From positions 101,765 through 165,764 of the forward strand of contig NZ_CALROT020000004.1 of NCBI RefSeq assembly GCF_943369875.1: DNA of 64,000 nucleotides. Reading direction: 5' to 3'. Below are positions 26,309 to 43,556 of the stretch, one piece after another (position 1 is the stretch's first letter; every line of letters begins with the position of its first letter). A program made the translations under genes and the position numbers. Origin of the DNA: Vulcanococcus limneticus LL (GTDB lineage: Bacteria; Cyanobacteriota; Cyanobacteriia; PCC-6307; Cyanobiaceae). The notes beneath the pieces were generated by a model. That model ran no database searches and was not told where the DNA came from. It was given only the letters and a program-made list of their open reading frames with translations.

Positions 26309-27940
<1,632 letters not shown>

Positions 27941-27989
27941 TCAGGCACTGCGCCGCCCCACTCCCCCCGCCTGCTGATCTCCTCCGCCC

Positions 27990-28397
27990 ATGACCCTCAC
28001 CCTCCGCGTTCTGGCTCCCGATCAGAGCGTCTTCGACGGCAGTGCCGACGAAGTGATCCTGCCCAGCACCACCGGCCAGCTCGGCATCCTCACCGGTCAC
28101 GTCTCCCTGCTGACCGCCCTCGACACGGGCGTGCTGCGGGTGCGTGAGGGCAACGCCTGGACGGCGATCGCCGTCCTCGGCGGCTTCGCCGAGGTGGAAG
28201 CCGACGAGGTCACCGTGCTGGTCAACGGCGGTGAGCTGGGCAAGAGCATCGACGCCAGCACGGCATCCGCCGAGCTGGACCGGGCCCAGCAGGCCGCCGC
28301 GGCCTTCGAAGGTCAGCCCGCCAGCACTGAAAAGGTGAAGGCCCAGCAGGAGCTGGCGCGGGCTCGGGCCCGGCAGCAGGCCACCCTGGCGAGCTGA
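27990..28397 (+). CDS. atpC: ATP synthase F1 epsilon subunit
   Basis: [29 protein letters not shown]. Confidence 0.98.
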
Positions 28398-28611: not shown

Positions 28612-29913
28612 GTGATGGGGACGGGGCGGGAGCTGGGGCTGCAGGTGAGGGGCTGGCTGGAGGCTGGCGTGCTCGATCTCGACAACCGCACCGCCCTGGC
28701 GAACCGGCTGATCGATGGGCTCGGGGCCGAGGTGTGGCTGAGCGGGCCGGTGCGGGATCTGGCGGCCCAGCCGCTGCTGCGCCAGGTGCTGCGGCAGCAG
28801 GGCGGGGCCCAGCGCTCGGCCCTGGAGAGCCTGCGGCAGCAGCTGGAGCGCACCTATGCGCCGAGGGTGCTGGCAGAGCTGCTGGAGCTGCTGGAGGCGG
28901 CCAGCGGCCTGCCGGTCGGCCTGCCCGCACCCGACGCGCCACCGACGGGTCGCGCCCAGGGAGCCCAGGGCCTGGCGCTTCCTGTCGGTGGCCCGAGCAG
29001 CCCGAACGGTCTCCACGGAGCAGCGGCCGAGGCCACAGGTCTGGAGCTGGCGGTGGCGGAGCCACCCCTGGATGGGTCCCTGGCGGTGGCCGGACCGCGC
29101 GGGGGCCTGGGGGCACCACGCCCAGCCGCCCTCACGGGGCCTGCAGGCCTCAGCGCCCTCGCCCAGCAGCTGCGGCCGCTGGGGCCGGGCCTGGCCCTGG
29201 CCTTCGCCCTGGCCCTGGTGTGGTGGTGGGCGGCACTGGAACTCGACCGGCGCCTGTTCGATGGCTGGGGCTGGAGCGGGGGCGTGGTGCTGGCCGTGCT
29301 GCTCGCTCTGCTGCAGGCCCTGGCCCTGGGGCCCCTCAAGACGGCCCGGCGCCAGTGGCCCCTGGAGCAGGCCGATGCCACCAATCCCCACGGGGCCTGG
29401 CGCTGGCTCACGGCCCCCTGGATCCACCACGACCAGCGCGAGGCGGCGGTGAATCTGCTGATGCTGCTGGTGCTGCTGGGGCCCTCGCCGCTGCCCCTGG
29501 CCGATGTGGTGCTGCGCTACGCCCTCACCAGCCTGGCCACCGTGGCCCTGGCCCTGCTGGTGGCCCAGCGCCGCACCCCCGAGGGGCGCTGGGACGGGGC
29601 CTCCGGGGCGATCAGTGCCCTGGTGGGCCTGGGCACGGCCGCCAGCCTGCTGCACTGGCGCGCCCTGGATTTCCCCCTGGGCCGCCTGGGTTTCGGCATT
29701 CCGGCCTGGGTGCTGCTGGTGCTCTACGGCGCCCTGCAGCTGGCCTGGGTGCTGCCGCGCCGCAGCGCCCAGGACGACAGCCGGCCGCTTGATCGATTGC
29801 TCAGCAGCCAGTGGTGGTGGGGCCTGGTGCTGGGGATCGGCTGGGCCCTGGTGAGCCGAGCCGGCGAGCTGCTTCAGGCGGCGGCGCGGGCCCGGGCCAC
29901 GGCCGCCATGTAG
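28612..29913 (+). CDS. Fusion of the island N-terminal helical domain with a rhomboid-like membrane domain (probably catalytically incomplete)
   Basis: AWRWLTAPWIH...N (WR loop / TM2), WDGASGA (GxSG); no His in the last TM; N-terminus aligns with the 38027 and 40334 products. Confidence 0.7.
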   Translation: MMGTGRELGLQVRGWLEAGVLDLDNRTALANRLIDGLGAEVWLSGPVRDLAAQPLLRQVLRQQGGAQRSALESLRQQLERTYAPRVLAELLELLEAASGLPVGLPAPDAPPTGRAQGAQGLALPVGGPSSPNGLHGAAAEATGLELAVAEPPLDGSLAVAGPRGGLGAPRPAALTGPAGLSALAQQLRPLGPGLALAFALALVWWWAALELDRRLFDGWGWSGGVVLAVLLALLQALALGPLKTARRQWPLEQADATNPHGAWRWLTAPWIHHDQREAAVNLLMLLVLLGPSPLPLADVVLRYALTSLATVALALLVAQRRTPEGRWDGASGAISALVGLGTAASLLHWRALDFPLGRLGFGIPAWVLLVLYGALQLAWVLPRRSAQDDSRPLDRLLSSQWWWGLVLGIGWALVSRAGELLQAAARARATAAM

Positions 29914-32279
29914 CGGCCCCAGAGCTCAGCCACCAACGCCCCGCTGGCAGCCTCGGCCGGGCGGTTGTCGTCGTTGCCCATCCAGATCGCCGAAAGCAGA
30001 TCCAGCGAGGGGGAGTAACCAATGAACAGCACATCGACACCGTTGTTGGTGGTTCCGGTCTTGCCGCGGCCATCAGCGACCACAGCGGCAGCGCGCCCGG
30101 TACCGCGTTGCACCACGGCAGCCAGCAACCGATCCATATCGGCGGCGATCTCGGGCTTGATCAACTGGCGCGCCTGCTCACCGATCGGCACCGTGACGCT
30201 GCCGGATGGGCAATCGCTGAGGCGACGGATCGAGGAGCACATGCCCAGATCCACGATTCGCTTCACGCCATGCAGCGGCACGGATCGTCCGCCGTTGGCA
30301 ACCACGGCATAGGCACGGGCCATCTCATACAGCAGCGTTTCACGACCACCGAGCATCGTGTTGTAATCAGCATCCAGAGGATTGCTGATACCAAGGTCCC
30401 GTGCCCGTTTGACAACCTGAGCAAGGCCAGCCCGCTCCCCGAGCCGCAAGGCCACAACGTTTTCCGACAAGGCAAAGCCGTCAATTACCGTAGCCAAACC
30501 ACCCGAAGAACCAGCTCCATGACTGCAACCAGCCACATAACTCAGCGGCGCACAGGAGATTGAATCTCCCACCTTCACGCCAGCCTCAAGGGCGGCGATG
30601 AAGGGAAACAATTTAAAGGTAGAACCAGGCTGACGCAAAGCCTGGACCCGGTCAAAACTTGATCGACCGTAATCCCCCCCACCCACATAAGCGAGGATTT
30701 CTCCGGTACTGGGTCTGACACTGATCAGAGCCCCCTGCGCAAGACCGACACCTGCAGCCTGGCCATCCAGAAACCTACGCAGCTGCTGCTGAGCAAGAGC
30801 TTGCAAAGCGGGGTCAATAGTACTCTCAACGTAGTAGTTCCCACCCGAATCTTCATTCAAATTCAGGCCAAACCTTACACCCTCCAATTCGCTGATCACA
30901 TAATCACTGAAATAGGGATAAGCCTTGGTTGCGCTTTCCCGACAAGAGGAGGAATCGATGTTCAAAGGCTTGCGCTTGGCATCCGCCAGCACTTGGTCGG
31001 CCTGGGGGCCGTAGCCCAGAAAACCCTGTTCATGCATCAACTGCAGGACCAGGTTGCGACGGTGCACCGGCAACCATTCACCGTCCCGCAGAGCTTTCAC
31101 CCTCTGCCGATCGCCCTCACTCAGATTTCCCTTGCCCTGTTGACGCAGGCGCTCCTCCAACGCAGCGGCTTCTTGCCATGGTTGCGGCGCATAACAAGGG
31201 CTATAGCCATTGGGACTCGGCAGCAACCCCACCAGAAATGCCGACTGAGCCAGATCCAGCTGACTGGCCGAACGCCGGAAGTAGATCTGAGCGGCCTGCT
31301 CAAAACCATCAGTACCGAGACCGAGATGAGCCCGGTCCAGATACATCTTCAGGATCTGATTCTTGCTATATCCAACCTCAAGCTGCAACGCCACCCACAG
31401 CTCCCGCAGTTTGCGGGTGAGGCTGTAGTCCCGACCAACATCGGCATAGTAGAGACGCGCCACCTGCTGGGTGAGACCACTACCGCCGCCGCTGCCCAGC
31501 AATGCCGATCGGAACGTGCCGAACAGGTCAAGGCCACTGTTCCAACCGAAGCGTGCCTCCTCCGAGGCAATCAACGCCTGACGAAGATGCAGCGGATAGC
31601 TGGCCAGGGATGGCAGGGCCGTTGCCGAACCCTGCTTGGCATCCACCTGACTGCCATCGCTGGCAAAGATCTTCACCGGCCCGGCGATGGAGCGGATCTT
31701 CGAGCCGCCTGCCACCGTGGCCGCCGCCAGCATGCCGCTCACCAGGAGTGCCGAGCTCACCAGGCTGCCGATCCCAAGCCAGTGAATCGCCTGCTCAAGC
31801 GCACTGCGGGGATGGTGGTAGCGCAGGACGGGTGCATCACCCTTCAGCGGAGAGCCCAGCCAAACCGCATCGCCATCTCGCAGGCTGATCGCCTTGATGC
31901 GCCGGTCGCGGTGGAACAGACCGTTGGCGGAGTTGAAATCCTCCAGGGTGAAGTCGCGGTCACTCGCGCGGGCACGCTCGAGGATCGCGTGCACGCGACT
32001 CACGCCCGCCACATCCACCGGAAGCTCCGTGCCTGGATCGCGGCCGATGCGCACGCGCCCCGCACCCAGCACCAGGCGGCTGATCCGCTGCTGCCCCTGC
32101 CAGAGCTCAGCAACAGCCTGACGCTGGCGGAGATCATGCCAGGCCTGGAAGAGCGCACCACGCCTGCCAGCGCCGGCCAGGCTGCCGCGGCCACGCACAG
32201 CCGCAAGCAACTGGCGCCAGGCTTGGCGGCGACCCATGGGGGGGGCGGAAGTCTCCTGCTCCACCGTGGTCTGCTCCAT
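29874..32279 (-). CDS. FHA-domain bifunctional class A penicillin-binding protein (transglycosylase + transpeptidase)
   Basis: FHA IGRD...VSRVHA...NSANG; one TM; GT51 SEEARF, GGSGLTQQV, RKLRE, KNQILKMYL; transpeptidase RQPGSTFK (SxxK), SEN, KTG. Confidence 0.9.
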   Translation of the reverse strand: MEQTTVEQETSAPPMGRRQAWRQLLAAVRGRGSLAGAGRRGALFQAWHDLRQRQAVAELWQGQQRISRLVLGAGRVRIGRDPGTELPVDVAGVSRVHAILERARASDRDFTLEDFNSANGLFHRDRRIKAISLRDGDAVWLGSPLKGDAPVLRYHHPRSALEQAIHWLGIGSLVSSALLVSGMLAAATVAGGSKIRSIAGPVKIFASDGSQVDAKQGSATALPSLASYPLHLRQALIASEEARFGWNSGLDLFGTFRSALLGSGGGSGLTQQVARLYYADVGRDYSLTRKLRELWVALQLEVGYSKNQILKMYLDRAHLGLGTDGFEQAAQIYFRRSASQLDLAQSAFLVGLLPSPNGYSPCYAPQPWQEAAALEERLRQQGKGNLSEGDRQRVKALRDGEWLPVHRRNLVLQLMHEQGFLGYGPQADQVLADAKRKPLNIDSSSCRESATKAYPYFSDYVISELEGVRFGLNLNEDSGGNYYVESTIDPALQALAQQQLRRFLDGQAAGVGLAQGALISVRPSTGEILAYVGGGDYGRSSFDRVQALRQPGSTFKLFPFIAALEAGVKVGDSISCAPLSYVAGCSHGAGSSGGLATVIDGFALSENVVALRLGERAGLAQVVKRARDLGISNPLDADYNTMLGGRETLLYEMARAYAVVANGGRSVPLHGVKRIVDLGMCSSIRRLSDCPSGSVTVPIGEQARQLIKPEIAADMDRLLAAVVQRGTGRAAAVVADGRGKTGTTNNGVDVLFIGYSPSLDLLSAIWMGNDDNRPAEAASGALVAELWGRYMAAVARARAAA

Positions 32280-32335
32280 CACCACCACCACCGATCTGCA
32301 GAGTCATAGGGTAGGCAAAGCACCCCTCTGCGCCG

Positions 32336-32611
32336 TTGCCGCGTCACCATGACCCCTGGGAGTCGTTTCGCCTCTGGCTGGCTTTAACGCTTGCCCTGTA
32401 CGCCATCAGGGCGATCTTCGCAGCCCGGTTGCCCGGAGCCATTCCCGGCTGGATTCTGCTGCTGATGGTTCTGGTGAGTGTTGTGATGGCGGCGAAGGCC
32501 CTGCTGTTCCCCGGCAGGGTCATCCCCTACCGAGAGGGCGACGGCGGCTGGTGGACCGACGTGAGCGACGACTGGCGCCTGTGGTGGCAACGCCGGCGGC
32601 AGGGGCGATGA
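32336..32611 (+). CDS. Small two-TM hypothetical protein
   Basis: TTG start; two hydrophobic helices; Trp/Arg-rich tail; stop overlaps the next ATG (ATGA). Confidence 0.6.
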   Translation: MPRHHDPWESFRLWLALTLALYAIRAIFAARLPGAIPGWILLLMVLVSVVMAAKALLFPGRVIPYREGDGGWWTDVSDDWRLWWQRRRQGR

Positions 32612-33372
32612 GCACCACGGCCCAACTGCACCTGCGCGACACCCCCAGCAAGCGGCTGGCGCTGCAGAGCGGCCAACCGCTGACCATCGGCAGCGCCAGC
32701 AACAACCGCCTGGCCCTGGTGAGCCAGCCGGGTGTATCCCCTCACCATGCGGTGGTGCGTTACACCGCCAGCAACGGCTGGGTGGTGTGCGACTGGCAGA
32801 GCAGCGATGGCACCTATCTGGAGGGGGAGCGAATCCGACGCTGCCGCCCCCTGAGCGATGGGGATGAGATCCGTCTGGGGCGGGATGGACCGGTGCTGGT
32901 GTTCAACCTGGAGACGCCCGCTCCGACGGAGGCCCCAGCGTCCAAGGCCCCCGCCCATGCGGCATCGGCGCAAGCCGCACCGAGCCCTGGCACGCGAACA
33001 CCACAGGGGACCAGTGCTGCGCCACGAACGCCGCCGCCTCGCACGATCGACATCGACGGCACCACCGTGCCCGTGAACCAGATCCGATCGGCGGTGGTGC
33101 TCAGCGAACCCCTCTACCCGAAGATCTTCAGCTGGTGGGTGCTCGCCTGCCTGGGTGGCCTGCTGCTGCTGCCCTTCCCGCTGCTGTTCTGGCCATTGGA
33201 GCTGGCGGCTCTGTGCGGCTGGATTGTGCTGGGCTCCCGCAAGAGCCACACCCTGTTGATCGTCCAGCACGACGGCCAGGCGCAGCGACGTGCCTTTGCC
33301 AACCGGGTGACCGCTCTCTCACACCGGAACGGCATCCGCAAGGCCATCGGTCAGAGTCTCGAGAACCCCTGA
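32608..33372 (+). CDS. FHA-like domain protein with a C-terminal two-TM hairpin domain
   Basis: LTIGS...VSPHHAVV...SSDGTYLEG...LSDGDEIRLG; Pro/Ala linker; beta-TM-TM-beta tail reminiscent of DUF6232 (low confidence). Confidence 0.8.
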   Translation: MSTTAQLHLRDTPSKRLALQSGQPLTIGSASNNRLALVSQPGVSPHHAVVRYTASNGWVVCDWQSSDGTYLEGERIRRCRPLSDGDEIRLGRDGPVLVFNLETPAPTEAPASKAPAHAASAQAAPSPGTRTPQGTSAAPRTPPPRTIDIDGTTVPVNQIRSAVVLSEPLYPKIFSWWVLACLGGLLLLPFPLLFWPLELAALCGWIVLGSRKSHTLLIVQHDGQAQRRAFANRVTALSHRNGIRKAIGQSLENP

Positions 33373-33379
33373 GGACCCC

Positions 33380-34732
33380 GTGACCTGGATACTGCCGGAA
33401 GGCGCCTGGATGCAATTCGAAGGCCTGAGCAGCCCCGTCCAGGTGTTGCGAGGCCTGGGCGGGGGCACCCAGGGGCAGGTGTTTGAGGTGGCGGTGGGCG
33501 GCGAGCGTCTGGCGCTCAAGTGGTATCTGCCCAGCTGCCTGGAGAGAGATCCGCACCTGGAACGGAGGCTGCTGGAGAGCATCCGCGCCACCGCACCCAG
33601 TCGTGCCTTCCTCTGGCCGATCACGCTGCTGCGCCCCTCCGCCTCCAGCCTGCCGTTGATCCGTAGCAAGAATCCCGGCTTCGGCTATCTGATGGAGCTG
33701 CGGCCGCCTCAGTTCGTCGGCGCGGTGGAGCACTACGGCGGTCGGCTCGAGATCAGTCTGCGCCAGGCCCTCAGGGCCAGCTTTTTCCTGGCCGAGGCCT
33801 TTCACGCGCTGCACAGCAAAGGCCTTTGTTACAAGGACATCTCTCTTGGCAATCTGTTCCTGGAGGCGGCAACGGGTCGCATCCTGATCTGCGATAACGA
33901 CAACGTGGATGTGGATGGCCGCGACCTCGGCAGCGTGCTCGGCACCCCGGGATTCATGGCTCCCGAAATCCTGATGAGACGGGGCAGACCCGGTGCCAAC
34001 AGCGATCTCTTCTCGATCGCCGTACTGCTGTTCATGCTGCTGACCCGACACCATCCACTCCGCGGACAGATGGAGCTGGCCATTCGCTGCCTGGATGAAC
34101 CGGCGCGCCGCAAGCTCTACGGGGAGGATCCGGTGTTCATCTTCGACCCACAGGACTGCCGAAACCGGCCCGATCCAACGGAGCACGCTGCCGCTCTGCT
34201 GCTCTGGCCGATCTATCCGATACCCCTTCAGGAGCTGTTCATTCAATCCTTCTGCACAGGCATGCATGCCCCCAGCCAACGGGCCCTCACCGGGCAGTGG
34301 ATGGAGAAGCTGGCCGCCGTGCTCGACCAGCGCCAGACCTGTCCCGCCTGCGGCTCGGAGCACTTCAGTTCCCAGACCACCTGTTGGTATTGCGCCGAGC
34401 CCCTGGGCATCGCTGCGGCGTTGCGCATGGCCAACGGTCGGGTGATGGCCTGCACCGATAACGAGCTACATGCCCACCACTTCAACAGCCTGGAGGCACC
34501 GCGCCTCGATGAGCCGATCGCGCGCGTGGTGGCCCACCCCAGCGACCCCAGGCTGCTTGGACTGCGAAACCTGAGCGATCAGCCCTGGCGGGCCACGGCT
34601 GCGGGGGGCCAGCAGCATGCCGTTGCCCCAGGCAAAACATGTAATCTCGCAGCGCTTCTCCAGCTCGACACACCCTGGGGTGCGGTGCGCCTGGAGCCCG
34701 CCAGAAGCGAGCACCTCAGCACGCGATCCTGA
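33380..34732 (+). CDS. Soluble Ser/Thr protein kinase of the YegI / TerY-P type with a Cys4 zinc ribbon
   Basis: LGGGTQGQV, LALKWY, CYKDISLGN, ICDNDN in place of DFG, GTPGFMAPE, SDLFS; CPACG...CWYC. Confidence 0.92.
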   Translation: MTWILPEGAWMQFEGLSSPVQVLRGLGGGTQGQVFEVAVGGERLALKWYLPSCLERDPHLERRLLESIRATAPSRAFLWPITLLRPSASSLPLIRSKNPGFGYLMELRPPQFVGAVEHYGGRLEISLRQALRASFFLAEAFHALHSKGLCYKDISLGNLFLEAATGRILICDNDNVDVDGRDLGSVLGTPGFMAPEILMRRGRPGANSDLFSIAVLLFMLLTRHHPLRGQMELAIRCLDEPARRKLYGEDPVFIFDPQDCRNRPDPTEHAAALLLWPIYPIPLQELFIQSFCTGMHAPSQRALTGQWMEKLAAVLDQRQTCPACGSEHFSSQTTCWYCAEPLGIAAALRMANGRVMACTDNELHAHHFNSLEAPRLDEPIARVVAHPSDPRLLGLRNLSDQPWRATAAGGQQHAVAPGKTCNLAALLQLDTPWGAVRLEPARSEHLSTRS

Positions 34733-35466
34733 TGCCCGGCTTTCCAAACGTTCGTCTGGCCAACCGGCCGCTGCATTTCTTCTATCTGTGCGATTGCTCC
34801 GGCTCGATGGCCGCCCAGGGCAAGATGCAGTCGCTCAACCAGGCGATTCGGCAGTCGCTGCCGGGCATGGCCAACGTTGCCCGCGACAACCCGGAGGCCC
34901 GGGTGCTGGTAAGGGCTGTGGCCTTCTCCGATCAGGCCAGCTGGCATATCGCTGAGCCCACCTCGGTGGAGACACTGCAGTGGCGTGACCTTGAGGCCGG
35001 AGGGGTGACCGCCATGGGCGACGCCCTGAGGCTGGTGGCCGAGCAGCTGCACACCCCACCGATGGAGGAGCGAGCGCTTCCCCCCGTGCTGGTGCTGATC
35101 TCCGATGGCCAGCCCACCGACGATTTTGAAGCCGGCCTCGAACGGCTGATGCGCGAACCCTGGGCTCAGAAGGCCGTGCGCCTGGCAATCGCCCTCGGCC
35201 ACGATGCCGATCTGGAGGTGCTGCAGCAGTTCATCGGGCCCGCACCCGCCAACCAGCGCGAGCGTTCCCCGCGCAGGCCGCTGCAGGCCAGCAACGCAAC
35301 CTCCCTGGCCCAGTACATCCAATGGGCCTCGACGGCGGTGGTCGGAGCGGCCTCGATGCCCGTGAGCCGGATGGCTGACTCCCAGGACACCGGCAGTACC
35401 CCTCTGCCGGATCTGCCTCCCACCGAAATGGATCCGATCGGCGACGTTGGCCCCATGGTCTGGTGA
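34732..35466 (+). CDS. terY: TerY-like von Willebrand factor A domain protein
   Basis: RPLHFFYLCDCSGSM (MIDAS DxSxS), GGVTAMGDAL, VLISDGQPTDD; lies between a kinase and a PP2C. Confidence 0.85.
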   Translation: MPGFPNVRLANRPLHFFYLCDCSGSMAAQGKMQSLNQAIRQSLPGMANVARDNPEARVLVRAVAFSDQASWHIAEPTSVETLQWRDLEAGGVTAMGDALRLVAEQLHTPPMEERALPPVLVLISDGQPTDDFEAGLERLMREPWAQKAVRLAIALGHDADLEVLQQFIGPAPANQRERSPRRPLQASNATSLAQYIQWASTAVVGAASMPVSRMADSQDTGSTPLPDLPPTEMDPIGDVGPMVW

Positions 35467-36980: not shown

Positions 36981-37045
36981 ATCCAACCTGCTCCGCCTCC
37001 ATTCAGCCTCCTCAATCCCCACGCGAGCACGGCGGCCAGTTATGA
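36977..37045 (+). CDS. 22-aa bridging mini-ORF (MNPTCSASIQPPQSPREHGGQL)
   Basis: ATG overlaps the PP2C stop (ATGA) and its TGA overlaps the next ATG (ATGA); may be coincidental. Confidence 0.3.
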   Translation: MNPTCSASIQPPQSPREHGGQL

Positions 37046-37986
37046 CGGACTACGCACTGGGCAGCGCGATCCGAGCAGCCCTGGATCAACCCGGATCATC
37101 AGGCTCCCGAAGCGTTGAGTCTCGCCTGCCGCAGCTGGTGGCTGCCGATCAGCAGGATCTGCTGCCGGCCCTCAGCTTCCTGCTGCGCTCGCGCGCCATG
37201 GCCAGCGCCCTGGCCCAGCCCAGCGGCCGTGATGACGGCCGCATCGCCGCCCGACTACTGGCGGAGGTGGAAGCCCAGTACAGCCCGGCCATCTGCCAGA
37301 GGCTCCAGGGGGTGATCCAAGGGATGGTCGGGATGCCCGAGCGACAGGCGCCGCACCCCAGCCCCGCCTGGAGCCCGGTGCCACCGGCTCAGGCGGTGGT
37401 CAACCAGCCGGCGGTCACCACCCTGGTGACCACGAGCAGCAGCGGCAGCAGCTGGGTGGTGGCTCTGCTCTGCTTCCTGATCGGCATCGTGGGGAGCGGG
37501 CTGCTGTTGTTGCTCTGGCAGCAGCAGCAGCAGCAGGGCAAACAAGCCGTCAATGTCAGCGCGACGCCCCCCGCACCGACGAACCCACCGGAGCCGCAGC
37601 CGTCCAGCCCAGTGGCACCGGCTAGTGAACCAAGCGCCGCACCGGCCGGCACCGCAGCGATCGATGCCGCCGTGGCCAGCATTCAGGAGCTCTATGCCGC
37701 CCTCTCCGCCAAGGATTATGCAAGCGCCTCCAACCACTACGGCGGCCAGGCCGCCGATCAGTTTGATCCCACCTTCTTCAACCAATTCGAACGGGTGACC
37801 GTGGCGGATCTCCGCCAGACCAGCAGCGCCGGCTCAACGATGAATTTCGAAGGCGTGGTGACCTTTGTCTATCCGAATGGCGATGTTCAGACCGAATCCC
37901 GTAGCTTCACGATGGATACCCGCACCACGCCCGTGCTGATCACCAGCAGCGAATTCGGACGGGTGCTTCAGCCCCGCCGTGGCTAA
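37042..37986 (+). CDS. Island paralogue P1: N-terminal helical domain, TM, Pro linker, NTF2/SnoaL-like extracytoplasmic domain
   Basis: DYALG...YSPAICQRL; TM WVVALLCFLIGIVGSGLLLLLW; C-terminal IQELYAALSAKDY...QFDPTFFNQFERV...ESRSF. Confidence 0.8.
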   Translation: MTDYALGSAIRAALDQPGSSGSRSVESRLPQLVAADQQDLLPALSFLLRSRAMASALAQPSGRDDGRIAARLLAEVEAQYSPAICQRLQGVIQGMVGMPERQAPHPSPAWSPVPPAQAVVNQPAVTTLVTTSSSGSSWVVALLCFLIGIVGSGLLLLLWQQQQQQGKQAVNVSATPPAPTNPPEPQPSSPVAPASEPSAAPAGTAAIDAAVASIQELYAALSAKDYASASNHYGGQAADQFDPTFFNQFERVTVADLRQTSSAGSTMNFEGVVTFVYPNGDVQTESRSFTMDTRTTPVLITSSEFGRVLQPRRG

Positions 37987-38026
37987 TTAGCCGGCCGGTA
38001 GGCTCAACGCACTCACAGCTGCGCCC

Positions 38027-38986
38027 TTGGCTTCAACCTCTGACCACGCGCTGGGGCAACGACTGGCCCAGCTGATCCAGCAGAGCGGAGACTCAGCCTT
38101 TGAAGGCGGTGTGCTCAGCCGCCGGTTGCAGGCTCAGCTCCAGGATCTGCTCGGTGCCGAGACCTCGCTGCTCAACCCGCTCCGGGATCTGCTGCAGCGA
38201 CCCAGCTTCCGGCAGCTCTTCAGCCTGGGCAGCCAGGGACAGCTCCTCCATGCTCGCGACGCCCTGCTGCGGGATCTGGCTGACGTCTACAGCCCAACAG
38301 TGCTGAACAGGCTGGATGCGGTGCTGCAGGGGTGCCTCAACCTGCACGGGGCCGCTGCCGCCACCTGGCCGGCAGCGGCTCCCCCATCCACCGTCAGGAG
38401 CGCAGCACCAGCCGGCCCGTCAGCCTCCTGGTCATCAGCACCCAGCAGCCAACCCCCTCCTGTCGCCTCCGCGCCCCCCACGGTGGTGACCATCCCCACC
38501 CATGCGCAGGGGCCGACGTCCATCCTGATCGCGCTGCTGGCCCTGATCTGCGGCGCGCTGGTGATGGCCCTGGCGGGGGTGCTGATCGGCAACCGCAGCA
38601 CCAACGGCACCACCAGCCCACCGGCCGCCACGAAGCCGAGCAGCCCTCCAGCACCGACTGCTCCCCTCATCCAACCGGCACCCGAACCGCCGCGGTCAGA
38701 GCCGGAGGCCGCAACGGCCGGCCAGTGGCAGGCTTGCGTGGATTACGGCGGCAACGATGGTCCACCTCCCCAGCCCGGCCAAACATGGTGGCCGGTGGTG
38801 GGCCCCGGCGAAGCCCTCGAAGCCTCCCGCCTGCATTGCCGCGGCGACGCCTTCACCAATGCCAACGGCAATGCGCAGGTCGCCAGCTTTCGCGATCGCG
38901 ATACAGCAGCAGCCTTCGCCCAGCAGCTCACCGAAGACAGCAGTCATCCCTACAGCTTCTGGGTTGGCGACCCCACGCAGCGCTGA
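38027..38986 (+). CDS. Island paralogue P2: N-terminal helical domain, TM, SPOR-like C-terminal domain
   Basis: DHALG...YSPTVLNRL; TM ILIALLALICGALVMALAGVLI; QVASFRDRDTAAAFAQQL resembles the SPOR beta-alpha unit. Confidence 0.75.
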   Translation: MASTSDHALGQRLAQLIQQSGDSAFEGGVLSRRLQAQLQDLLGAETSLLNPLRDLLQRPSFRQLFSLGSQGQLLHARDALLRDLADVYSPTVLNRLDAVLQGCLNLHGAAAATWPAAAPPSTVRSAAPAGPSASWSSAPSSQPPPVASAPPTVVTIPTHAQGPTSILIALLALICGALVMALAGVLIGNRSTNGTTSPPAATKPSSPPAPTAPLIQPAPEPPRSEPEAATAGQWQACVDYGGNDGPPPQPGQTWWPVVGPGEALEASRLHCRGDAFTNANGNAQVASFRDRDTAAAFAQQLTEDSSHPYSFWVGDPTQR

Positions 38987-40171
38987 TCAGGCGCAGCTGC
39001 GCCGCACCTGCGTATAGACCTGCTCAAACCGATCCCACCGGAAGCTGCGGGGGTCGTAGCGACTGCGGCTGCGATCCACCGCGGCATGCGTCGTGATCCG
39101 CTCCAAGGGGATCCCATAGAGAGCCTGCCAGCGCAAGATCTGTTCAGCCAAGGCTCGGTATTGCGCTTCGGTGTATCCCGAGTGCCCGCCCTGATCGCCA
39201 CGGCCATCCTCAGGACTCTCCAGGCTGACATGCAAAGCAATGTTGTTGATGGATGGTGGATTGTTTGCCGAAGTCTTGAAGCTGAGATCCCCAAAAGCAG
39301 AATCGCCAGCGCCATAGGCACGGGCCTGGTCGGGCACGATGCGCACTCTCTCTCCATCACGCCCGATCAACACGTGATAACTGCCCTGGGCCGAATCATT
39401 GGCCTGATCACGCTGGAAGAGCTCAACCGTTGAGGGCAGATCCAGAACCGTTTCATGCAACACGATCAGTGCAGGTTCTGCCGGGATGGCAGCACCGCTG
39501 GCGTCCTGCGTCTGCCGTTTGCCAAAGTTGCTGGCCGCCGCCAGCCGCTGGGTCTCCTGCTGGGGTGACCCCAGACGGGCGCAACGGTCCAGGCCATCCA
39601 CCGCCACGGGCGTGGCTGGCGCGCGCAACGATGAACCTGCGGTGCCCGTGGCCGGAGAACCTGCCGGCGCAAGGGCCGGATCGATCGCTGGGAGGGGTGG
39701 TGCCGCCACTCGAAACGCGGTCAGTCCCAGCCAACTGAGGCCCGCGCCGATGGCCACACCCACGCCCAGCCCCAGCAGCCAGCTGCGTAGATCGGGCTCC
39801 TGCCGATCTGCGGACAGCCCCGAGGCAGGAGCTGAATCCCCACCCTCCTGCCAGCCCTCCAGCAAGCCATCGAGGAAGGCCTGCTGCGGCGACACGCTGT
39901 CGGCCGGAAGGCTCCGACCAGCGCCATCCAGCAGCTCCTTCAGGGCCTGAGCACGGGCGCCATCCTGATCCGAAGCCAGCAGGGTGACGCAGGCCGGGTG
40001 GCGCAGCAGGGTGATCAGGCATTCCCGCAGCTGAGGCTGATCAGCCAGCAAGTGCTGCAACGCATGGGCGATGGCAGCCGGTACCTCCTCCGACGCCAGT
40101 CCACGCCTGCGCGCCGATAACACCAGGCCTCGAGCCAGGGAGAAGAGATCGGAGGCCTGCTGAGAGCGCAT
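38987..40171 (-). CDS. Membrane-anchored N-acetylmuramoyl-L-alanine amidase (Amidase_2) with a diverged island N-terminal domain
   Basis: IVLHET, GSYHVLIGRDG, SLES, YTEAQYRAL, ITTH...YDP Zn-ligand pattern; TM WLLGLGVGVAIGAGLSWLGL. Confidence 0.88.
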   Translation of the reverse strand: MRSQQASDLFSLARGLVLSARRRGLASEEVPAAIAHALQHLLADQPQLRECLITLLRHPACVTLLASDQDGARAQALKELLDGAGRSLPADSVSPQQAFLDGLLEGWQEGGDSAPASGLSADRQEPDLRSWLLGLGVGVAIGAGLSWLGLTAFRVAAPPLPAIDPALAPAGSPATGTAGSSLRAPATPVAVDGLDRCARLGSPQQETQRLAAASNFGKRQTQDASGAAIPAEPALIVLHETVLDLPSTVELFQRDQANDSAQGSYHVLIGRDGERVRIVPDQARAYGAGDSAFGDLSFKTSANNPPSINNIALHVSLESPEDGRGDQGGHSGYTEAQYRALAEQILRWQALYGIPLERITTHAAVDRSRSRYDPRSFRWDRFEQVYTQVRRSCA

Positions 40172-40305
40172 CAGGAGTCAGCCTGGTGAAACGGGAGAGA
40201 GGAACCAAGGCGCCGCCCCGGAGCAGCACAGGCCACCCAGGAGCGCGCATAGGGCAGCGCCCAGAAGTACTGCGGAGCTGCTCAGCCCCAGGTTCACGCC
40301 GATCC

Positions 40306-40311
40306 TATACT
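40306..40311 (+). promoter_or_regulatory. Possible -10 element for P3
   Basis: TATACT in an AT-rich spacer 23 bp before the TTG at 40334. Confidence 0.35.
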
Positions 40312-40333
40312 GATAACAGCGACAAAAAAGTCC

Positions 40334-41353
40334 TTGACAGGCAGCCCTGACTATCAACTTGGCAAGAGAATTGCACAGTTTCTCAATCAGAATGGCAGCA
40401 ACAACAATCCCGACAGCCGACTGATCAACAGCCTGCCAGACCTGATGGGGAGTGATCCATCTCTACTCCCACCCTTACGGGACATGATTCTGCGTCCCAG
40501 CTTGCGCAGGCTGCTGCACGAGAGCCAACCATCCCTCCTGCGGAGTGGACGCGACAGCCTGATTGCAGATCTGCAATTTACCTACAGCAGCACCATCATC
40601 TTTCGACTGCAACGTGTGCTGAGTGGCATCCTCAACCTGCCGGATATCGACGAACCGCGCACTCACGGACAGTGGGTCGATAACCCGCCCCCCCACTCAC
40701 AGGATTGGCCGCCCTCCAGCCACAGCGTTTCAGCACAACCCACCCCCAGCACCACAGTCACCTACGCCATTCAGACGCCATCCCAGGGCCAAAGCGGGCT
40801 GACTGCCGCGATGATCGCCCTGTTGGCCCTCATCTGTGGGGGAGGGCTCGTGGGCTTGATCTGGCTGCTGACCGGCCAATCCCCGCCGACACGCCAGGAT
40901 TCGCCTTCAACAACCCAGGCTCCGACCACGCCCTCACCAGCTGCCCCCGCACCACGTCAGCTGCAGGAGCCCACCCCTGCCCCCTCCAATCCCTGGGGGC
41001 CACCAGAGGAGTACAAATTCGGCCAGGGCCCCAGCCAGACCTATCCAGACACCTGTGCCTTCTCCAAGACGGACGCCCGTGGCGAACGGACGCTGGAGGA
41101 TAAATCACAACTGGAATTCTGGGCTTGCCGTGATGAAGGCGGCGACACCAATACCGGTTATGCCGTGATCTGGGGTGACGGCAAACGCACGGTCTACCGC
41201 TTCATGAACGGCGGGACTGGCGTGGTACAGGGAACCAACGGCCAGGATGTACCGATGTCTTGGCGCAACGACACCCACAACGGCCAGAAGATCATCGCCA
41301 TCAGCCATCAGGACGGGGCAAACTCCTGGATTCCTGGCCATGTGGACGACTGA
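40334..41353 (+). CDS. Island paralogue P3: N-terminal helical domain, TM, unknown beta-rich extracytoplasmic domain
   Basis: DYQLG...YSSTIIFRL; TM MIALLALICGGGLVGLIWLL; C-terminal domain with two Cys and alternating beta-strand patterns. Confidence 0.75.
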   Translation: MTGSPDYQLGKRIAQFLNQNGSNNNPDSRLINSLPDLMGSDPSLLPPLRDMILRPSLRRLLHESQPSLLRSGRDSLIADLQFTYSSTIIFRLQRVLSGILNLPDIDEPRTHGQWVDNPPPHSQDWPPSSHSVSAQPTPSTTVTYAIQTPSQGQSGLTAAMIALLALICGGGLVGLIWLLTGQSPPTRQDSPSTTQAPTTPSPAAPAPRQLQEPTPAPSNPWGPPEEYKFGQGPSQTYPDTCAFSKTDARGERTLEDKSQLEFWACRDEGGDTNTGYAVIWGDGKRTVYRFMNGGTGVVQGTNGQDVPMSWRNDTHNGQKIIAISHQDGANSWIPGHVDD

Positions 41354-41362
41354 ACGCGAGCC

Positions 41363-42513
41363 ATGAACGACCATCAGCTTCGCGTCCTGCTGCGAGAGCG
41401 GATCATGGCCGACCTGCAGAGCGGCATTCCGTGCGAGGGCCAGCACCTGCAGCTGTTGATGGGCGACCCTGCGGCGAGCTTCAGATGCCCCTGCTGCCAG
41501 CCCTGCGCTATCTGGTGAGGAGCCCGGCGTTCAGCAACGCCGTGGAGCAGAGGCCAGCGCTGACCGGGGAAACCCGCCTGCACCTACTGCACGAGGAACT
41601 TGAGAAGGCGTTCACCGTTGCGATCTGCCGACGCATGACGGCGGTGCTGCGGGACCTGCTCGGGCTGCCCGCAGGGGAGATCGCAGCGTTGGGCAAGGCC
41701 AGCGCACCGCCCACCACCCCTGGGCCACAGCCGATGCCAAGGCCTCCGCAACCGCTGCACCGACCGCTGCGGTCCATCGCCGGGCAGTCAAGCCAGTCGA
41801 CGTGAGCGATCCCACAGGGGGGTGAACTGCCCGCGGGCTGGCCGATCGAGGAGTTGATCCGGGAGCAGCCCGGCTGCGGGCGCGCCGCCGCAGGCGGCAG
41901 GCGATCTGTGGCGGTGGTGCTCAGCTTCATGGCCGAGGTGCTGGTGGTGGGCGTCCTGGGAGCGCTGGGCTGGATGGCACAGATCAGCCGTCAACCACTG
42001 CAGCCCCTTCACAGCAGCCAAGGCACCAGCCAGCAGCCGCTGGAAACCGAAGCAGCTCCACTCCAACCACAGGAGCCCGCGGCCAGCCCGCCTTCCCCGG
42101 CACCTGATCTGGGCACACAGGAGGCCAACCCTGACCAGGCGATCACCAGGGCTCAAAAGCTCTATGCCGAGCTCTCGAGCGGCAAGATGGATGCCGTGCG
42201 CCAACTGTTCAGCCCCGCCAGCCTCAGGCAGCGCCAGAGCCAGATCACCGGGCTGGCCACGGGTCAGCTCCAGGCCCGCCAGCTCCAGCGCAACGCCGCC
42301 ACCGATCCGCTCGGGGCCCTGCTCGGCACGGCCTTCCTGGCCCGGGAGCCGCAGCAGACGCCCCGGCCGCTCCGCGCCCTGGGGGCCAGCCCGGAGCTGG
42401 AGGCGGCCCTGGCCGCGACCTGGCCGGCCGGACCGGCGGACAGGAGGATGGGACCACGGCCCGCCCAGGCCGGCCCCACCGGCTCCAGCCGGCCCACGGC
42501 CCCACCGCCATGA
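41363..42513 (+). pseudogene. Island paralogue P4: frameshifted, interrupted and chimeric
   Basis: MNDHQL...MGD then a frameshift near 41468 into ELQMPLLPALRYLV; in-frame TGA at 41803-41805; TM RSVAVVLSF; NTF2-like domain breaks off at FSPA (~42219) and continues into unrelated high-GC sequence. Confidence 0.75.
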
Positions 42514-43556
42514 ACGACTACCAGCTCGGCGCGGCCCTGCGCGCCCAGGTGATCCAGGACCGCCAGCGCGGCCTGCCCGTGGAGGGGCGGCGGCTGCAGG
42601 CGCTGGTGGGCGATCTGGGCGGCGCCGAGCAGGCCGGCCTGCTGCCGGCCCTGCGTTACCTGGTGTTCTGCCCCGCCTTCCACAGCGCGGCGAGCCAGGC
42701 CGAGCCCCTGGCGGATCCGCGGCTGCTGACGCGGCTGATGCAGGAGCTGCAGGAGGTGTTCACCCCCGCCATCTGCCAGCGGATGCAGCGGGTGGTCGAG
42801 GGGCTGCTGGGCCTGCCCGCCACACCGGTCGCGGGTGCAGCCGCGGCTGTCGCCGCCGCACCGGTGCCGGCCCCCGTGCCGGAGCCAGTCGGTCTGGTGG
42901 CGATGCCCGTGCCGCTCGACGATCCGCGCCCGCCCACGTCGGAGCAGGCCCTGGCGCTGCTGGCCGCGAACCGCAGCGGCGCCGGCGGCGGCGGCAGCCG
43001 CTCCCTGGTGGTGGTGCTCTCCTTCCTCTGTGGCGGCCTGCTGGTGGGGCTGCTGGGCCTGCTGGTGTTCCTGCAGATGGCCGGCCGCCGCCAGCCCCAG
43101 CTCGGCACCAGCGAGGCCCGCCCGCCCGTACCTGTGGCCCAGCCGGTGACACCGCCGGCGACCCCGACCCTGCCGGAACCCGAGCCCGGCCCGCCCACCA
43201 GCGACGAGGCGGCCAGCAGCGAGGCCGCCAACCTGAATCAGGCCATCTCCCGGGTGCAGGAGCTCTACGGGGCCCTCTCCAGCAAGAACTACGACGCCGC
43301 CCGCGGCTTCTTCGCCGGAGCCGCCGCCGACCAGTTCGATCCCACCTTCTTCAACCAGTTCGAGCGGGTGAGCGTCGCCGAGCTGCGGGAGAGCGGCCGC
43401 AGCGGCAGCACCCTCACCCTGGAGGGCCAGGTGACCTTCACCTATCCGGATGGCACCAGCCAGCTGGAGAGCCGCAGCTTCACCGTCGACACGGCCACAA
43501 CCCCGGCGGTGATCACGGACAGTGCCTTCGGCCAGGTGCTCAAGGGGCGCCAGTGA
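42510..43556 (+). CDS. Island paralogue P5: N-terminal helical domain, TM, NTF2/SnoaL-like domain (host-like codon usage)
   Basis: DYQLG...FTPAICQRM; TM LVVVLSFLCGGLLVGLLGLLVFL; QFDPTFFNQFERV identical to P1. Confidence 0.82.
   Translation: MNDYQLGAALRAQVIQDRQRGLPVEGRRLQALVGDLGGAEQAGLLPALRYLVFCPAFHSAASQAEPLADPRLLTRLMQELQEVFTPAICQRMQRVVEGLLGLPATPVAGAAAAVAAAPVPAPVPEPVGLVAMPVPLDDPRPPTSEQALALLAANRSGAGGGGSRSLVVVLSFLCGGLLVGLLGLLVFLQMAGRRQPQLGTSEARPPVPVAQPVTPPATPTLPEPEPGPPTSDEAASSEAANLNQAISRVQELYGALSSKNYDAARGFFAGAAADQFDPTFFNQFERVSVAELRESGRSGSTLTLEGQVTFTYPDGTSQLESRSFTVDTATTPAVITDSAFGQVLKGRQ

What the first reader, a model, noticed from the sequence alone, without database searches (positions are those of the whole stretch)
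28612..42830. A ~100-aa N-terminal helical domain of no family I recognise, repeated in seven island proteins
Seen, aligned by eye: 28612 LIDGLGAEVWLSGPVRDLAAQPLLRQVL..LERTYAPRVLAELLELLEAASGLP; 37042 DYALG..LLPALSFLLRSRAM..VEAQYSPAICQRLQGVIQGMVGMP; 38027 DHALG..LQDLLGAETSLLNPLRDLLQRPSFRQL..LADVYSPTVLNRLDAVLQGCLNL; 40334 DYQLG..LPDLMGSDPSLLPPLRDMILRPSLRRL..LQFTYSSTIIFRLQRVLSGILNLP; 41363 DHQL..LLPALRYLVRSPAF..LEKAFTVAICRRMTAVLRDLLGLP; 42510 DYQLG..LLPALRYLVFCPAF..LQEVFTPAICQRMQRVVEGLLGLP; and, weakest, the amidase LQHLLADQPQLRECLITLLRHPAC. Each is followed by a Pro/Ser/Thr/Ala-rich linker and a TM helix, so the domain is predicted cytoplasmic while the C-terminal modules differ. Inference: a shared docking or signalling adaptor that connects interchangeable outer domains to the TerY/kinase core.
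Basis: partly seen in the sequence, partly recalled or inferred. Interest (0 to 1): 0.88.

Follow-up and report, generated by a model that had tools for sequence, protein, structure and literature searches.

The report
New cytoplasmic domain tagging cyanobacterial envelope proteins
A previously undescribed ~100-residue helical domain sits at the cytoplasmic N-terminus of a whole set of membrane proteins in small freshwater and marine cyanobacteria, always encoded beside one kinase/phosphatase/FHA signalling cluster that includes a cell-wall synthase, so it most likely marks these proteins as clients of that signalling system.

Summary
Five intact genes (28612, 37042, 38027, 40334, 42510) and one pseudogene (41363) share a clearly homologous N-terminal domain. 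The amidase (38987-40171, minus strand) is a weak, partial match. Each copy is followed by a low-complexity linker and a membrane helix.

The domain matches no Pfam, NCBIfam or PDB sequence model. An exhaustive profile search finds 437 clusters (at 50% identity), and in all 150 listed hits the domain is N-terminal. AlphaFold2 gives a confident six-helix bundle (pLDDT 93.7) with no Foldseek match in the PDB or BFVD.

All 27 genome loci recovered carry the picocyanobacterial gene cluster; 24 are labelled as cyanobacterial MAGs. Across 107 related loci the domain genes sit beside a conserved cluster: FHA-fused class A PBP, FHA membrane protein, Zn-ribbon Ser/Thr kinase, vWA protein and PP2C phosphatase. 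They typically lie directly downstream of the PP2C gene or of an FHA-bearing membrane protein.

The locus is syntenic, not mobile. The window carries an extra 6.2-kb array of paralogs.

My best reading is a cytoplasmic adaptor that couples varied periplasmic modules (NTF2-like, rhomboid-like, amidase and others) to this phospho-signalling core. The functional link is well supported. Physical docking was not tested.

The parts
28612..29913 (+). Rhomboid-like membrane protein with the N-terminal domain at 28612-28923 (the real start is probably the ATG at 28615). It is likely a pseudoprotease.
   Evidence: Family HMM 84.8 bits. Pfam Rhomboid 30.3 bits. No conserved His in the last TM helix and the Ser of GxSG is not conserved among 22 homologs.
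29874..32291 (-). Class A penicillin-binding protein with a cytoplasmic N-terminal FHA domain.
   Evidence: Pfam FHA, Transgly and Transpeptidase. Conserved beside the cluster in related loci.
32551..33372 (+). FHA-domain protein with a hydrophobic C-terminal segment that I read as membrane helices (no hydropathy scan was run on it).
   Evidence: Pfam FHA 5.4e-15. NCBIfam FhaB/FipA-like FHA region, below cutoff. Sequence shown.
33380..34732 (+). Soluble Ser/Thr kinase with a C-terminal zinc ribbon (CPACGSEHFSSQTTCWYC).
   Evidence: Pfam Pkinase. CxxC..CxxC present in 55 of 55 orthologs.
34732..35466 (+). vWA protein (TerY-like) with a DxSxS MIDAS motif.
   Evidence: Pfam VWA. DxSxS present in 79 of 80 orthologs. 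The PADLOC TerY model gives only 15 bits.
35463..36980 (+). PP2C phosphatase followed by a hydrophobic segment and a C-terminal tail, read as bitopic from the sequence (no hydropathy scan was run on it).
   Evidence: Pfam PP2C_2 1.4e-25. Sequence shown.
37042..37986 (+). Domain (37042-37341), linker, TM helix, then an NTF2-like periplasmic domain (G copy).
   Evidence: HMM 80.5 bits. TM at residues 139-157. The C-terminus is homologous to that of the 42510 protein.
38027..38986 (+). Domain (38027-38350), linker, TM helix, then a C-terminal domain of unknown fold (H type, with conserved WWPVVG and Cys residues).
   Evidence: HMM 103.6 bits. TM at 166-184. Alignment A8. No Pfam or PDB sequence hit.
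38987..40171 (-). Membrane-anchored Amidase_2 (N-acetylmuramoyl-L-alanine amidase). A weak domain-like N-terminus covers residues 26-85, about 39917-40096.
   Evidence: Pfam Amidase_2 1.3e-17. HMM 18.7 bits against a shuffle maximum of 12.1. hhalign probability 17.6%. Some orthologs lack the N-terminal region altogether.
40334..41353 (+). Domain (40334-40648), linker, TM helix, then a C-terminal domain of unknown fold (J type).
   Evidence: HMM 94.5 bits. TM at 161-179. Alignment A9.
41363..42513 (+). Pseudogene of an NTF2-type member. The domain spans 41363-41694, with a frameshift near 41468 and a TGA at 41803-41805.
   Evidence: Three-frame reading. HMM 55.8 bits for the in-frame part. An independent run's contig shows no listed difference over the stop codon region.
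42510..43556 (+). Domain (42510-42821), linker, TM helix (residues 163-191), then an NTF2-like domain (232-345). This is the ortholog of the single copy in the syntenic relative L001.
   Evidence: HMM 112 bits. AlphaFold2 models. Foldseek gives NTF2-like hits. Synteny.

Best explanation
The repeat is a genuine protein domain family of about 100 residues that matches no Pfam, NCBIfam or PDB entry. It is predicted to fold as a six-helix bundle and, in the sequences recovered here, is found only in picocyanobacteria. In every listed hit it forms the extreme N-terminus of membrane proteins whose periplasmic or membrane modules differ: NTF2-like, rhomboid-like, an H type, a J type, a Cys-pair/coiled-coil type ending in 'RDxPLF', TPR, and probably an amidase.

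I propose that it is a cytoplasmic adaptor that marks these envelope proteins as clients of one conserved phospho-signalling core. That core consists of a Zn-ribbon Ser/Thr kinase, a vWA protein, a PP2C phosphatase and FHA-bearing membrane proteins (an FHA-fused class A PBP, an FHA membrane protein, or a 2xFHA-ABC transporter).

The likely sequence of events is as follows. The folded domain docks a core component. The kinase and phosphatase then set the phosphorylation state of the adjacent linker (16% Ser+Thr on average). The FHA domains of the PBP or transporter read that state. In this way cytoplasmic signalling assembles or releases sets of periplasmic cell-wall modules.

Shown here: homology, N-terminal position, confident fold, absence from known families, and conserved gene neighbourhood with probable operon linkage.

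Inferred: cytoplasmic location, physical docking, phosphorylation of the linker, FHA read-out, and a role in the cell wall.
For: - Homology and significance.
- Family size and position: the profile search finds 437 clusters at E<=1e-3 and 168 at E<=1e-10, N-terminal in all 150 listed hits.
- Architecture: most of the longer members have a single TM helix after the domain.
- No known family: no Pfam hit on the domain in 118 members, none in NCBIfam, none in PDB sequences.
- Fold: AlphaFold2 pLDDT 93.7, pTM 0.86, six helices. Foldseek best E is 2.5 against the PDB and 1.8 against BFVD.
- Neighbourhood: L001 is syntenic, with the full core and two domain genes. All 27 genome loci found by a degenerate motif carry the domain, and 13 show the core within their 8-kb chunk. 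In vWA-centred metagenome loci, 15 of 15 well-covered loci and 33 of 36 loci of at least 9 kb hold a domain gene.
- Adjacency: 31 of 35 NTF2-type genes lie directly downstream of the PP2C gene. 14 of 22 A5-type genes lie directly downstream of the FHA-PBP gene and 2 downstream of a 2xFHA-ABC transporter gene.
- A marine low-GC variant keeps the domain, kinase, vWA and PP2C but replaces the PBP with a 2xFHA-ABC transporter.
- Copy number of domain genes varies from 1 to 7 per locus while the core stays single-copy. That fits many clients served by one core.
- A cell-wall theme runs through the modules: class A PBP, Amidase_2 and NTF2-like domains, whose Foldseek matches include the corresponding regions of PBP5 and of Bd1075.
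Against: - No interaction was computed or measured.
- No column of the folded domain has conserved Ser/Thr, so any phospho-site must lie in the poorly conserved linker.
- The positive-inside rule is not decisive (1.85 against 1.56 K+R). Topology therefore rests on the lack of a signal peptide and on the periplasmic nature of the amidase and of the analogous modules.
- About six A5-type genes and a few others have no core gene within the DNA retrieved.
- Three loci of at least 9 kb show the triad without a domain gene in reach.
- Remote homology to a known helical domain cannot be excluded without HHpred or an AlphaFold DB search.
Confidence: 0.5

Rival explanations
1. The domain is a homo- or hetero-oligomerisation module. 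It assembles the different bitopic proteins into one membrane complex. The kinase cluster is merely co-regulated and does not bind the domain.
For: Several paralogs with different outer modules sit in one array. The fold is a compact helical bundle. Conserved hydrophobic and charged positions (D35, R49, Y84) could form a protein interface of any kind.
Against: Many genomes have only one or two domain proteins. The monomer model is confident and self-contained. The very tight operon linkage to the PP2C gene and to FHA-protein genes is not needed under this model.
Confidence: 0.2
2. The domain is a cytoplasmic sensor or regulatory (for example autoinhibitory or ligand-binding) domain that controls the attached outer module from inside the cell, independently of phosphorylation.
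For: It is found at the N-terminus of membrane proteins in all listed hits. Residues such as G7 and D35 are nearly invariant and could line a small pocket.
Against: One sensor domain would have to control very different modules (NTF2-like, rhomboid-like, TPR) across a single TM helix and a long disordered linker. The conserved neighbourhood with signalling enzymes points to protein-protein signalling.
Confidence: 0.1
3. The locus is an anti-phage TerY-P-type defence island, and the domain proteins are its variable membrane sensors or effectors.
For: The vWA + PP2C + Zn-ribbon kinase architecture matches the TerY-P triad as described in PMC11090510. The paralog array is variable between strains and has lower GC than its flanks in this window.
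Against: The cluster is syntenic and apparently core in this clade, lying between atpBE and the PSRP-3 gene. It carries a class A PBP and an amidase. PADLOC gives only a 15-bit TerY hit and generic kinase hits, and nothing for the PP2C, the FHA protein or (apart from one 15-bit chance-level hit) the domain proteins. No nucleases or restriction genes were seen next to it. No viral relatives were found.
Confidence: 0.08

Closest known systems
TerY-P triad (TerY-like vWA + PP2C phosphatase + Ser/Thr kinase fused to a C-terminal zinc ribbon; Anantharaman et al. 2012, as summarised in PMC11090510)
   Same: Three adjacent, partly overlapping genes encode a vWA protein with a DxSxS MIDAS motif, a PP2C and a kinase with CxxC..CxxC. 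The triad is proposed to act as a phosphorylation-dependent switch.
   Different: Here the triad is embedded with FHA proteins, a class A PBP and the new-domain membrane proteins. The PP2C appears to be membrane-anchored. There are no Ter genes, nucleases or restriction systems nearby. The vWA scores only 15 bits on the PADLOC TerY model. No N-terminal client domain of this kind is mentioned in the description of TerY-P that I could read.
Actinobacterial fhaA-fhaB-pstP-rodA-pbpA-pknA-pknB cell-wall/division cluster (from my own knowledge)
   Same: FHA proteins, a membrane PP2C, a Ser/Thr kinase and a peptidoglycan synthase are encoded together. In that system FHA domains read phospho-threonines in juxtamembrane regions of envelope proteins. 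The FHA region here gives a sub-threshold hit to NCBIfam FhaB/FipA.
   Different: The kinase here is soluble, with a zinc ribbon and no PASTA domains. The synthase is a class A PBP with its own FHA domain rather than a SEDS-bPBP pair. A vWA protein is present. The new N-terminal domain did not match any non-picocyanobacterial sequence in the searches here.
GpsB-type cytoplasmic adaptors of Firmicutes (from my own knowledge)
   Same: GpsB is a small helical cytoplasmic module that connects several envelope and cell-wall enzymes and is tied to a Ser/Thr kinase/phosphatase pair.
   Different: GpsB is a separate soluble protein that binds short cytoplasmic tails of PBPs. Here the helical module is fused to each client. 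There is no sequence or fold similarity.
FHA-ABC transporters such as mycobacterial Rv1747 (from my own knowledge)
   Same: The marine variants and some freshwater variants pair the domain gene with a 2xFHA-ABC-2 transporter gene.
   Different: That transporter family is not known to have a partner carrying this domain.
ARC6/ZipN-like bitopic division proteins with a periplasmic NTF2-like (IMS) domain
   Same: The overall plan is the same: a cytoplasmic N-terminal domain, one TM helix and an NTF2-like outer domain. Three family members hit Pfam ARC6-like_IMS, and the 42510 C-terminal domain is NTF2-like.
   Different: ARC6/ZipN carries a DnaJ-like N-terminal domain, not this one. The window proteins do not hit PF13355.

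Membership tests
Any curated protein family covering the N-terminal domain (Pfam-A, NCBIfam, PADLOC) | Significant match of the ~100-residue N-terminal region to a curated model | tested here: not met
   No Pfam hit on the region in the window proteins or in 118 family members. There is no NCBIfam hit; the GltJ hits lie in the linker and are far below cutoff. No meaningful PADLOC hit.
Any solved or viral predicted structure | Sequence or fold similarity to a PDB or BFVD entry | tested here: not met
   The profile against PDB sequences gives a best E of 0.8. Foldseek against the PDB gives a best E of 2.5 and TM no higher than 0.34. BFVD gives a best E of 1.8. AlphaFold DB and HHpred were not available.
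TerY-P triad | vWA protein with a MIDAS motif | tested here: met
   Pfam VWA. DCSGS in the window protein, and DxSxS in 79 of 80 orthologs.
TerY-P triad | PP2C-like phosphatase encoded next to the vWA gene | tested here: met
   PP2C_2 at 1.4e-25. The gene overlaps the end of the vWA gene (35463-35466).
TerY-P triad | Ser/Thr kinase fused to a C-terminal zinc ribbon | tested here: met
   Pkinase hit. CxxC..CxxC in the window kinase and in 55 of 55 orthologs.
TerY-P triad | vWA protein specifically of the TerY clade | tested here: inconclusive
   The PADLOC TerY model gives only 15.3 bits, E 0.0027. No phylogeny was made.
TerY-P triad | Association with Ter genes, DNA-processing genes or defence genes | tested here: not met
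   The neighbours identified are atpBE, a PBP, FHA proteins, envelope proteins, PSRP-3 and housekeeping genes. The PADLOC scan of nine cluster proteins found no dedicated defence component. The rest of the window was not scanned.
Actinobacterial Fha/PstP/PknAB cell-wall cluster | Transmembrane PASTA-domain kinase and a SEDS-bPBP pair | tested here: not met
   The kinase shows no PASTA domain and no obvious TM segment. The synthase is a class A PBP. This is an analogy only.
Rhomboid intramembrane serine proteases (for the 28612 protein) | Rhomboid domain with a catalytic Ser (GxSG) and a His in the last TM helix | tested here: inconclusive
   The Pfam Rhomboid hit is above cutoff. However, the Ser of GxSG is replaced by Ala, Val or Thr in several of the 22 homologs, and no conserved His exists in the last TM helix (the motif there is WxWGxxxG). 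No alignment to a solved rhomboid could be obtained.

The most novel reading that the evidence does not exclude
The domain has a new fold and serves as the client tag of a TerY-P-type vWA/kinase/phosphatase switch. Through FHA-bearing synthases and transporters, that switch governs peptidoglycan growth or remodelling in picocyanobacteria. This would give the TerY-P triad its first defined housekeeping role and its first identified output proteins. The strain-variable array of tagged periplasmic modules would then be a way of diversifying envelope functions under one regulator.
Probability: 0.3. Interest if true: 0.75.

Novelty: new variant of a known kind. Interest (0 to 1): 0.62.

Why it matters
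Picocyanobacteria are among the most abundant photosynthetic organisms, and how they regulate their cell envelope and division is poorly known. This domain defines a coherent, unannotated set of envelope proteins; every source name seen for them was 'hypothetical protein' or a generic rhomboid label. It ties them to a single Ser/Thr phospho-signalling cluster that contains an FHA-fused class A PBP. That gives concrete, testable candidates for the substrates and outputs of a TerY-P-like triad, whose targets are otherwise unknown. It also adds a confidently predicted fold with no match in the PDB.

Tried and rejected
- The search for related loci on genome contigs failed twice because alignments A2 and A5 had no stretch conserved enough. 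I replaced it with a hand-made degenerate DNA motif.
- A plasmid search with atpD was uninformative.
- The search for homologous proteins with profiles returned only 16-19 hits, mostly short proteins, because of its candidate limit.
- The Anantharaman 2012 paper (PMC4104200) is not held, so the TerY-P definition comes from PMC11090510.
- A literature search found no description of this cluster or domain.
- I looked for a conserved Ser/Thr inside the fold as a phospho-acceptor and found none.
- The positive-inside rule did not settle the topology.
- Attempts to align the rhomboid part to solved rhomboids failed.
- The H-type and J-type outer domains gave no Pfam or PDB sequence hits.
- A viral-contig scan found no relatives.
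- An apparent 42600->41490 joint in run X4 is an artefact. The contig continues along the 42510 gene and is then placed on the similar pseudogene.
- I rejected chance or low-complexity similarity as an explanation on the basis of the shuffle controls.
Full report
**Setting.** The window is high-GC DNA (0.60-0.78) from a lake-water metagenome assembly. It carries atpD and atpC at 26435-28397. Related DNA comes from Cyanobium, Synechococcus and Prochlorococcaceae MAGs.

Downstream of atpC the genes are, in order:
- 28612-29913 (+): rhomboid-like protein
- 29874-32291 (-): FHA-fused class A PBP
- 32551-33372 (+): FHA protein with a hydrophobic C-terminus
- 33380-34732 (+): Ser/Thr kinase with a zinc ribbon
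- 34732-35466 (+): vWA protein
- 35463-36980 (+): PP2C with a hydrophobic segment and a C-terminal tail
- then six genes for single-pass membrane proteins: 37042, 38027, 38987 (minus strand, Amidase_2), 40334, 41363 (pseudogene) and 42510

**Is the repeat real?** Yes.
- BLASTP among the N-termini gives 27-74 bits for the 37042, 38027, 40334, 41363 and 42510 copies. The rhomboid protein joins through 38027 and 40334 at 30-32 bits.
- An HMM of the five core copies scores the rhomboid N-terminus at 27.5 bits. The best of 1000 shuffles reaches 10.2.
- A 154-sequence family HMM finds exactly seven places in a six-frame scan of the whole window, all inside 28.6-43.5 kb.
- The amidase N-terminus is the weak one. 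It scores 18.7 bits against a maximum of 12.1 in 5000 shuffles, but only HMM positions 19-78 align. An amidase ortholog in L017 scores 11.9 bits, reached by 1 of 3000 shuffles. hhalign gives probability 17.6%, E 1.4e-3. Other amidase orthologs have short N-termini with no such region. I take it as a probable degenerate copy.
- The 41363 gene is broken by a frameshift near 41468 and a TGA at 41803-41805. A contig from an independent run covers 41790-42050 with no listed difference at the stop codon.
- Every copy is followed by a low-complexity linker and a TM helix. The P+S+T+A share is 0.43-0.72 in five linkers and 0.33 in the amidase linker. The script gave no value for the 42510 protein.

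**Is it a known family?** No, as far as these tools can tell.
- Pfam gives nothing on the region in the window proteins or in 118 family members. NCBIfam gives nothing. The only PADLOC hit on a domain protein is a 15-bit chance-level Cas11e match.
- A profile search against PDB sequences has a best E of 0.8.
- An exhaustive profile search of 1.84 billion cluster representatives finds 437 clusters at E<=1e-3 and 168 at E<=1e-10. In all 150 listed hits the domain lies at the N-terminus, within roughly the first 140 residues. Among the longer hits it is usually followed by one TM helix at about residues 130-220.
- Where sources name these proteins, the name is 'hypothetical protein' or, for the rhomboid type, a generic rhomboid label.
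- AlphaFold2 on a 52-sequence alignment gives a confident model: pLDDT 93.7, pTM 0.86, with helices at 3-19, 26-36, 39-53, 55-61, 71-83 and 86-99.
- Foldseek finds no significant match in the PDB (best E 2.5, TM no higher than 0.34) or in BFVD (best E 1.8).
- The best-conserved positions are G7 (100%), D35 (95%), L44 and L51 (95%), K/R49 (83%), P47, P55, F57, D/E79, Y/F84 (98%) and R91. No column has conserved Ser/Thr.

**What is attached to it?**
- In the 42510 protein, the full-length model shows the domain, a disordered linker, a TM helix at 163-191 and a C-terminal domain at 232-345. Foldseek places that C-terminal domain among NTF2-like folds. The matches include the RsgI9 NTF2 domain, PBP5 of Enterococcus faecium and the Bdellovibrio protein Bd1075.
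- Other members carry a rhomboid domain (15 of 118), an ARC6-like IMS domain (3), TPR repeats (2) or an FtsH_ext domain (1).
- Two further recurrent outer domains have unknown folds, the H and J types.
- A large group, which I call A5, has a Cys pair just after the TM helix, a coiled-coil-like region and a C-terminal 'RDxPLF/W' motif.

**Genomic context elsewhere.**
- A syntenic 226-kb MAG contig (L001) has the order atpD, atpC, domain-rhomboid, FHA-PBP (minus strand), FHA protein, kinase, vWA, PP2C, one domain-NTF2 gene, then PSRP-3.
- The window is collinear with L001 over 26.5-36.3 kb and 42.5-50 kb. The stretch 36.3-42.5 kb, holding the 37042, 38027, amidase, 40334 and 41363 genes, is extra.
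- A degenerate DNA motif for the most conserved stretch recovered 27 loci from one genome per species. All 27 carry the domain. Three are labelled Bradyrhizobium, Rhizobium and Klebsiella MAGs. Two of these (L006, L010) hold the full cyanobacterial cluster and the third (L007) holds the domain gene with an FHA-ABC fragment, so they look mis-binned.
- Of 80 metagenome loci centred on the vWA gene, all 15 with at least 7 kb upstream and 5 kb downstream hold a domain gene. So do 33 of 36 loci of at least 9 kb.
- Across 107 loci I counted 103 domain ORFs:
  - NTF2 type: 35, of which 31 lie directly downstream of the PP2C gene on the same strand.
  - A5 type: 22, of which 14 lie directly downstream of the FHA-PBP gene and 2 directly downstream of a 2xFHA-ABC-2 transporter gene.
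  - Rhomboid type: 18, of which 15 follow atpC.
  - H type: 7. J type: 5.
- A low-GC marine variant (L071) keeps the domain protein (A5 type, 248 aa), kinase, vWA and PP2C. It pairs them with a 2xFHA-ABC transporter, a Zn-peptidase, a trypsin-TPR protein and a DUF2939 protein instead of the PBP.
- The zinc ribbon is present in 55 of 55 kinases and the MIDAS motif in 79 of 80 vWA proteins.

**Interpretation.** The invariant company of the domain is the kinase/vWA/PP2C triad plus at least one membrane protein with cytoplasmic FHA domains. The core is single-copy, whereas domain genes number from 1 to 7 per locus.

The domain has no signal sequence and begins at or near residue 1. Its partners (FHA domains, kinase, vWA, PP2C catalytic domain) are cytoplasmic, and the attached amidase and NTF2-like modules belong outside the membrane. 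So an N-in topology is the sensible reading, although the positive-inside rule alone does not decide it.

The best-supported explanation is a cytoplasmic adaptor that couples varied envelope modules to this phospho-signalling core. Because the fold has no conserved Ser/Thr, phosphorylation probably falls on the linker (16% Ser+Thr on average), with FHA domains as readers. This would be analogous to the actinobacterial Fha/PstP/PknAB system (from my own knowledge). Which core component the folded domain binds is unknown. The near-invariant D35 could serve as a ligand for the vWA MIDAS site, but that is speculation.

**Comparison with known systems.** The kinase/vWA/PP2C genes fit the architecture of the TerY-P triad as described in PMC11090510. 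The context, however, is a conserved housekeeping-like locus with a PBP, not a defence or Ter context. The vWA protein barely matches the PADLOC TerY model. The domain itself belongs to no known family. I therefore rate the whole as a new variant of known Ser/Thr-FHA envelope signalling that contains a new domain family.

**Limits.** No multimer prediction, HHpred, AlphaFold DB search or whole-genome phyletic profile could be run. The mechanism is inferred from gene neighbourhood and architecture.

Noticed in passing
window 28612-29913, and 21 homologs (alignment A10): The domain-bearing rhomboids look like pseudoproteases. The Ser of GxSG is replaced by Ala, Val or Thr in several members. The last TM helix carries an invariant WxWGxxxG motif with Trp where the catalytic His would be expected.
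   Followed up: partly
window 29874-32291 (-): A class A PBP (transglycosylase + transpeptidase) has a cytoplasmic N-terminal FHA domain, which I believe is an unusual fusion. It is conserved in the related loci that include the region upstream of the FHA-protein gene.
   Followed up: partly
window 29900-42500: GC is 0.62-0.68 here, against 0.72 in both flanks. The rhomboid gene (0.758) and the 42510 gene (0.741) match or exceed the flanks. In relatives the cluster has about the same GC as the DNA downstream of it. Together with the 6.2-kb extra array relative to L001, this suggests replacement by recombination from a lower-GC relative.
   Followed up: partly
window 41363-42513: This is a pseudogene of an NTF2-type member, with a frameshift near 41468 and a TGA at 41803-41805. 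Its C-terminal part is also degraded. An independent run's contig shows no listed difference over the stop codon region.
   Followed up: yes
L006, L007, L010: Contigs filed under Bradyrhizobium ivorense, Rhizobium sp. Q54 and Klebsiella MAGs carry cyanobacterial genes. L006 and L010 hold the cluster (PBP 69-81% identical to the window's), and L007 holds the domain gene with an FHA-ABC fragment. Mis-binning or contamination of those MAGs is likely.
   Followed up: no
L071 1650-11637; also L065, L066, L103, L105: A low-GC (about 0.48) marine variant of the cluster. It has a 2xFHA-ABC-2 transporter, a Zn-peptidase, a short domain protein, a trypsin-TPR protein, a DUF2939 protein, the kinase, the vWA protein and a shorter PP2C (295 aa).
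   Followed up: partly
A5 alignment (P0131 and relatives); L071 4945-5691: The A5-type members share a conserved Cys pair just outside the TM helix (…LCxxxGLC…) and an extreme C-terminal 'R-D/E-x-P-L-F/W' motif. This might be a ligand for a periplasmic partner such as the neighbouring trypsin-TPR protein.
   Followed up: no
window 33380-34732: The kinase has an atypical catalytic loop (YKDISLGN instead of HRDLKxxN) and DND in place of DFG. About 110 residues of unknown fold follow the zinc ribbon.
   Followed up: no
window 34732 and 35463-35466: The kinase stop overlaps the vWA start, and the vWA stop overlaps the PP2C start. This suggests translational coupling of the triad.
   Followed up: no
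window 38597-38986 and 40904-41353: There are two conserved periplasmic domains of unknown fold. The H type has WWPVVG, conserved Cys residues and 'ASFRDR..A..FA..L..D.SHP'. The J type has 'YKFG', 'FWACRD.GG' and 'IIVI.H.DGA.SWIPG'. Neither has a Pfam or PDB sequence match.
   Followed up: partly
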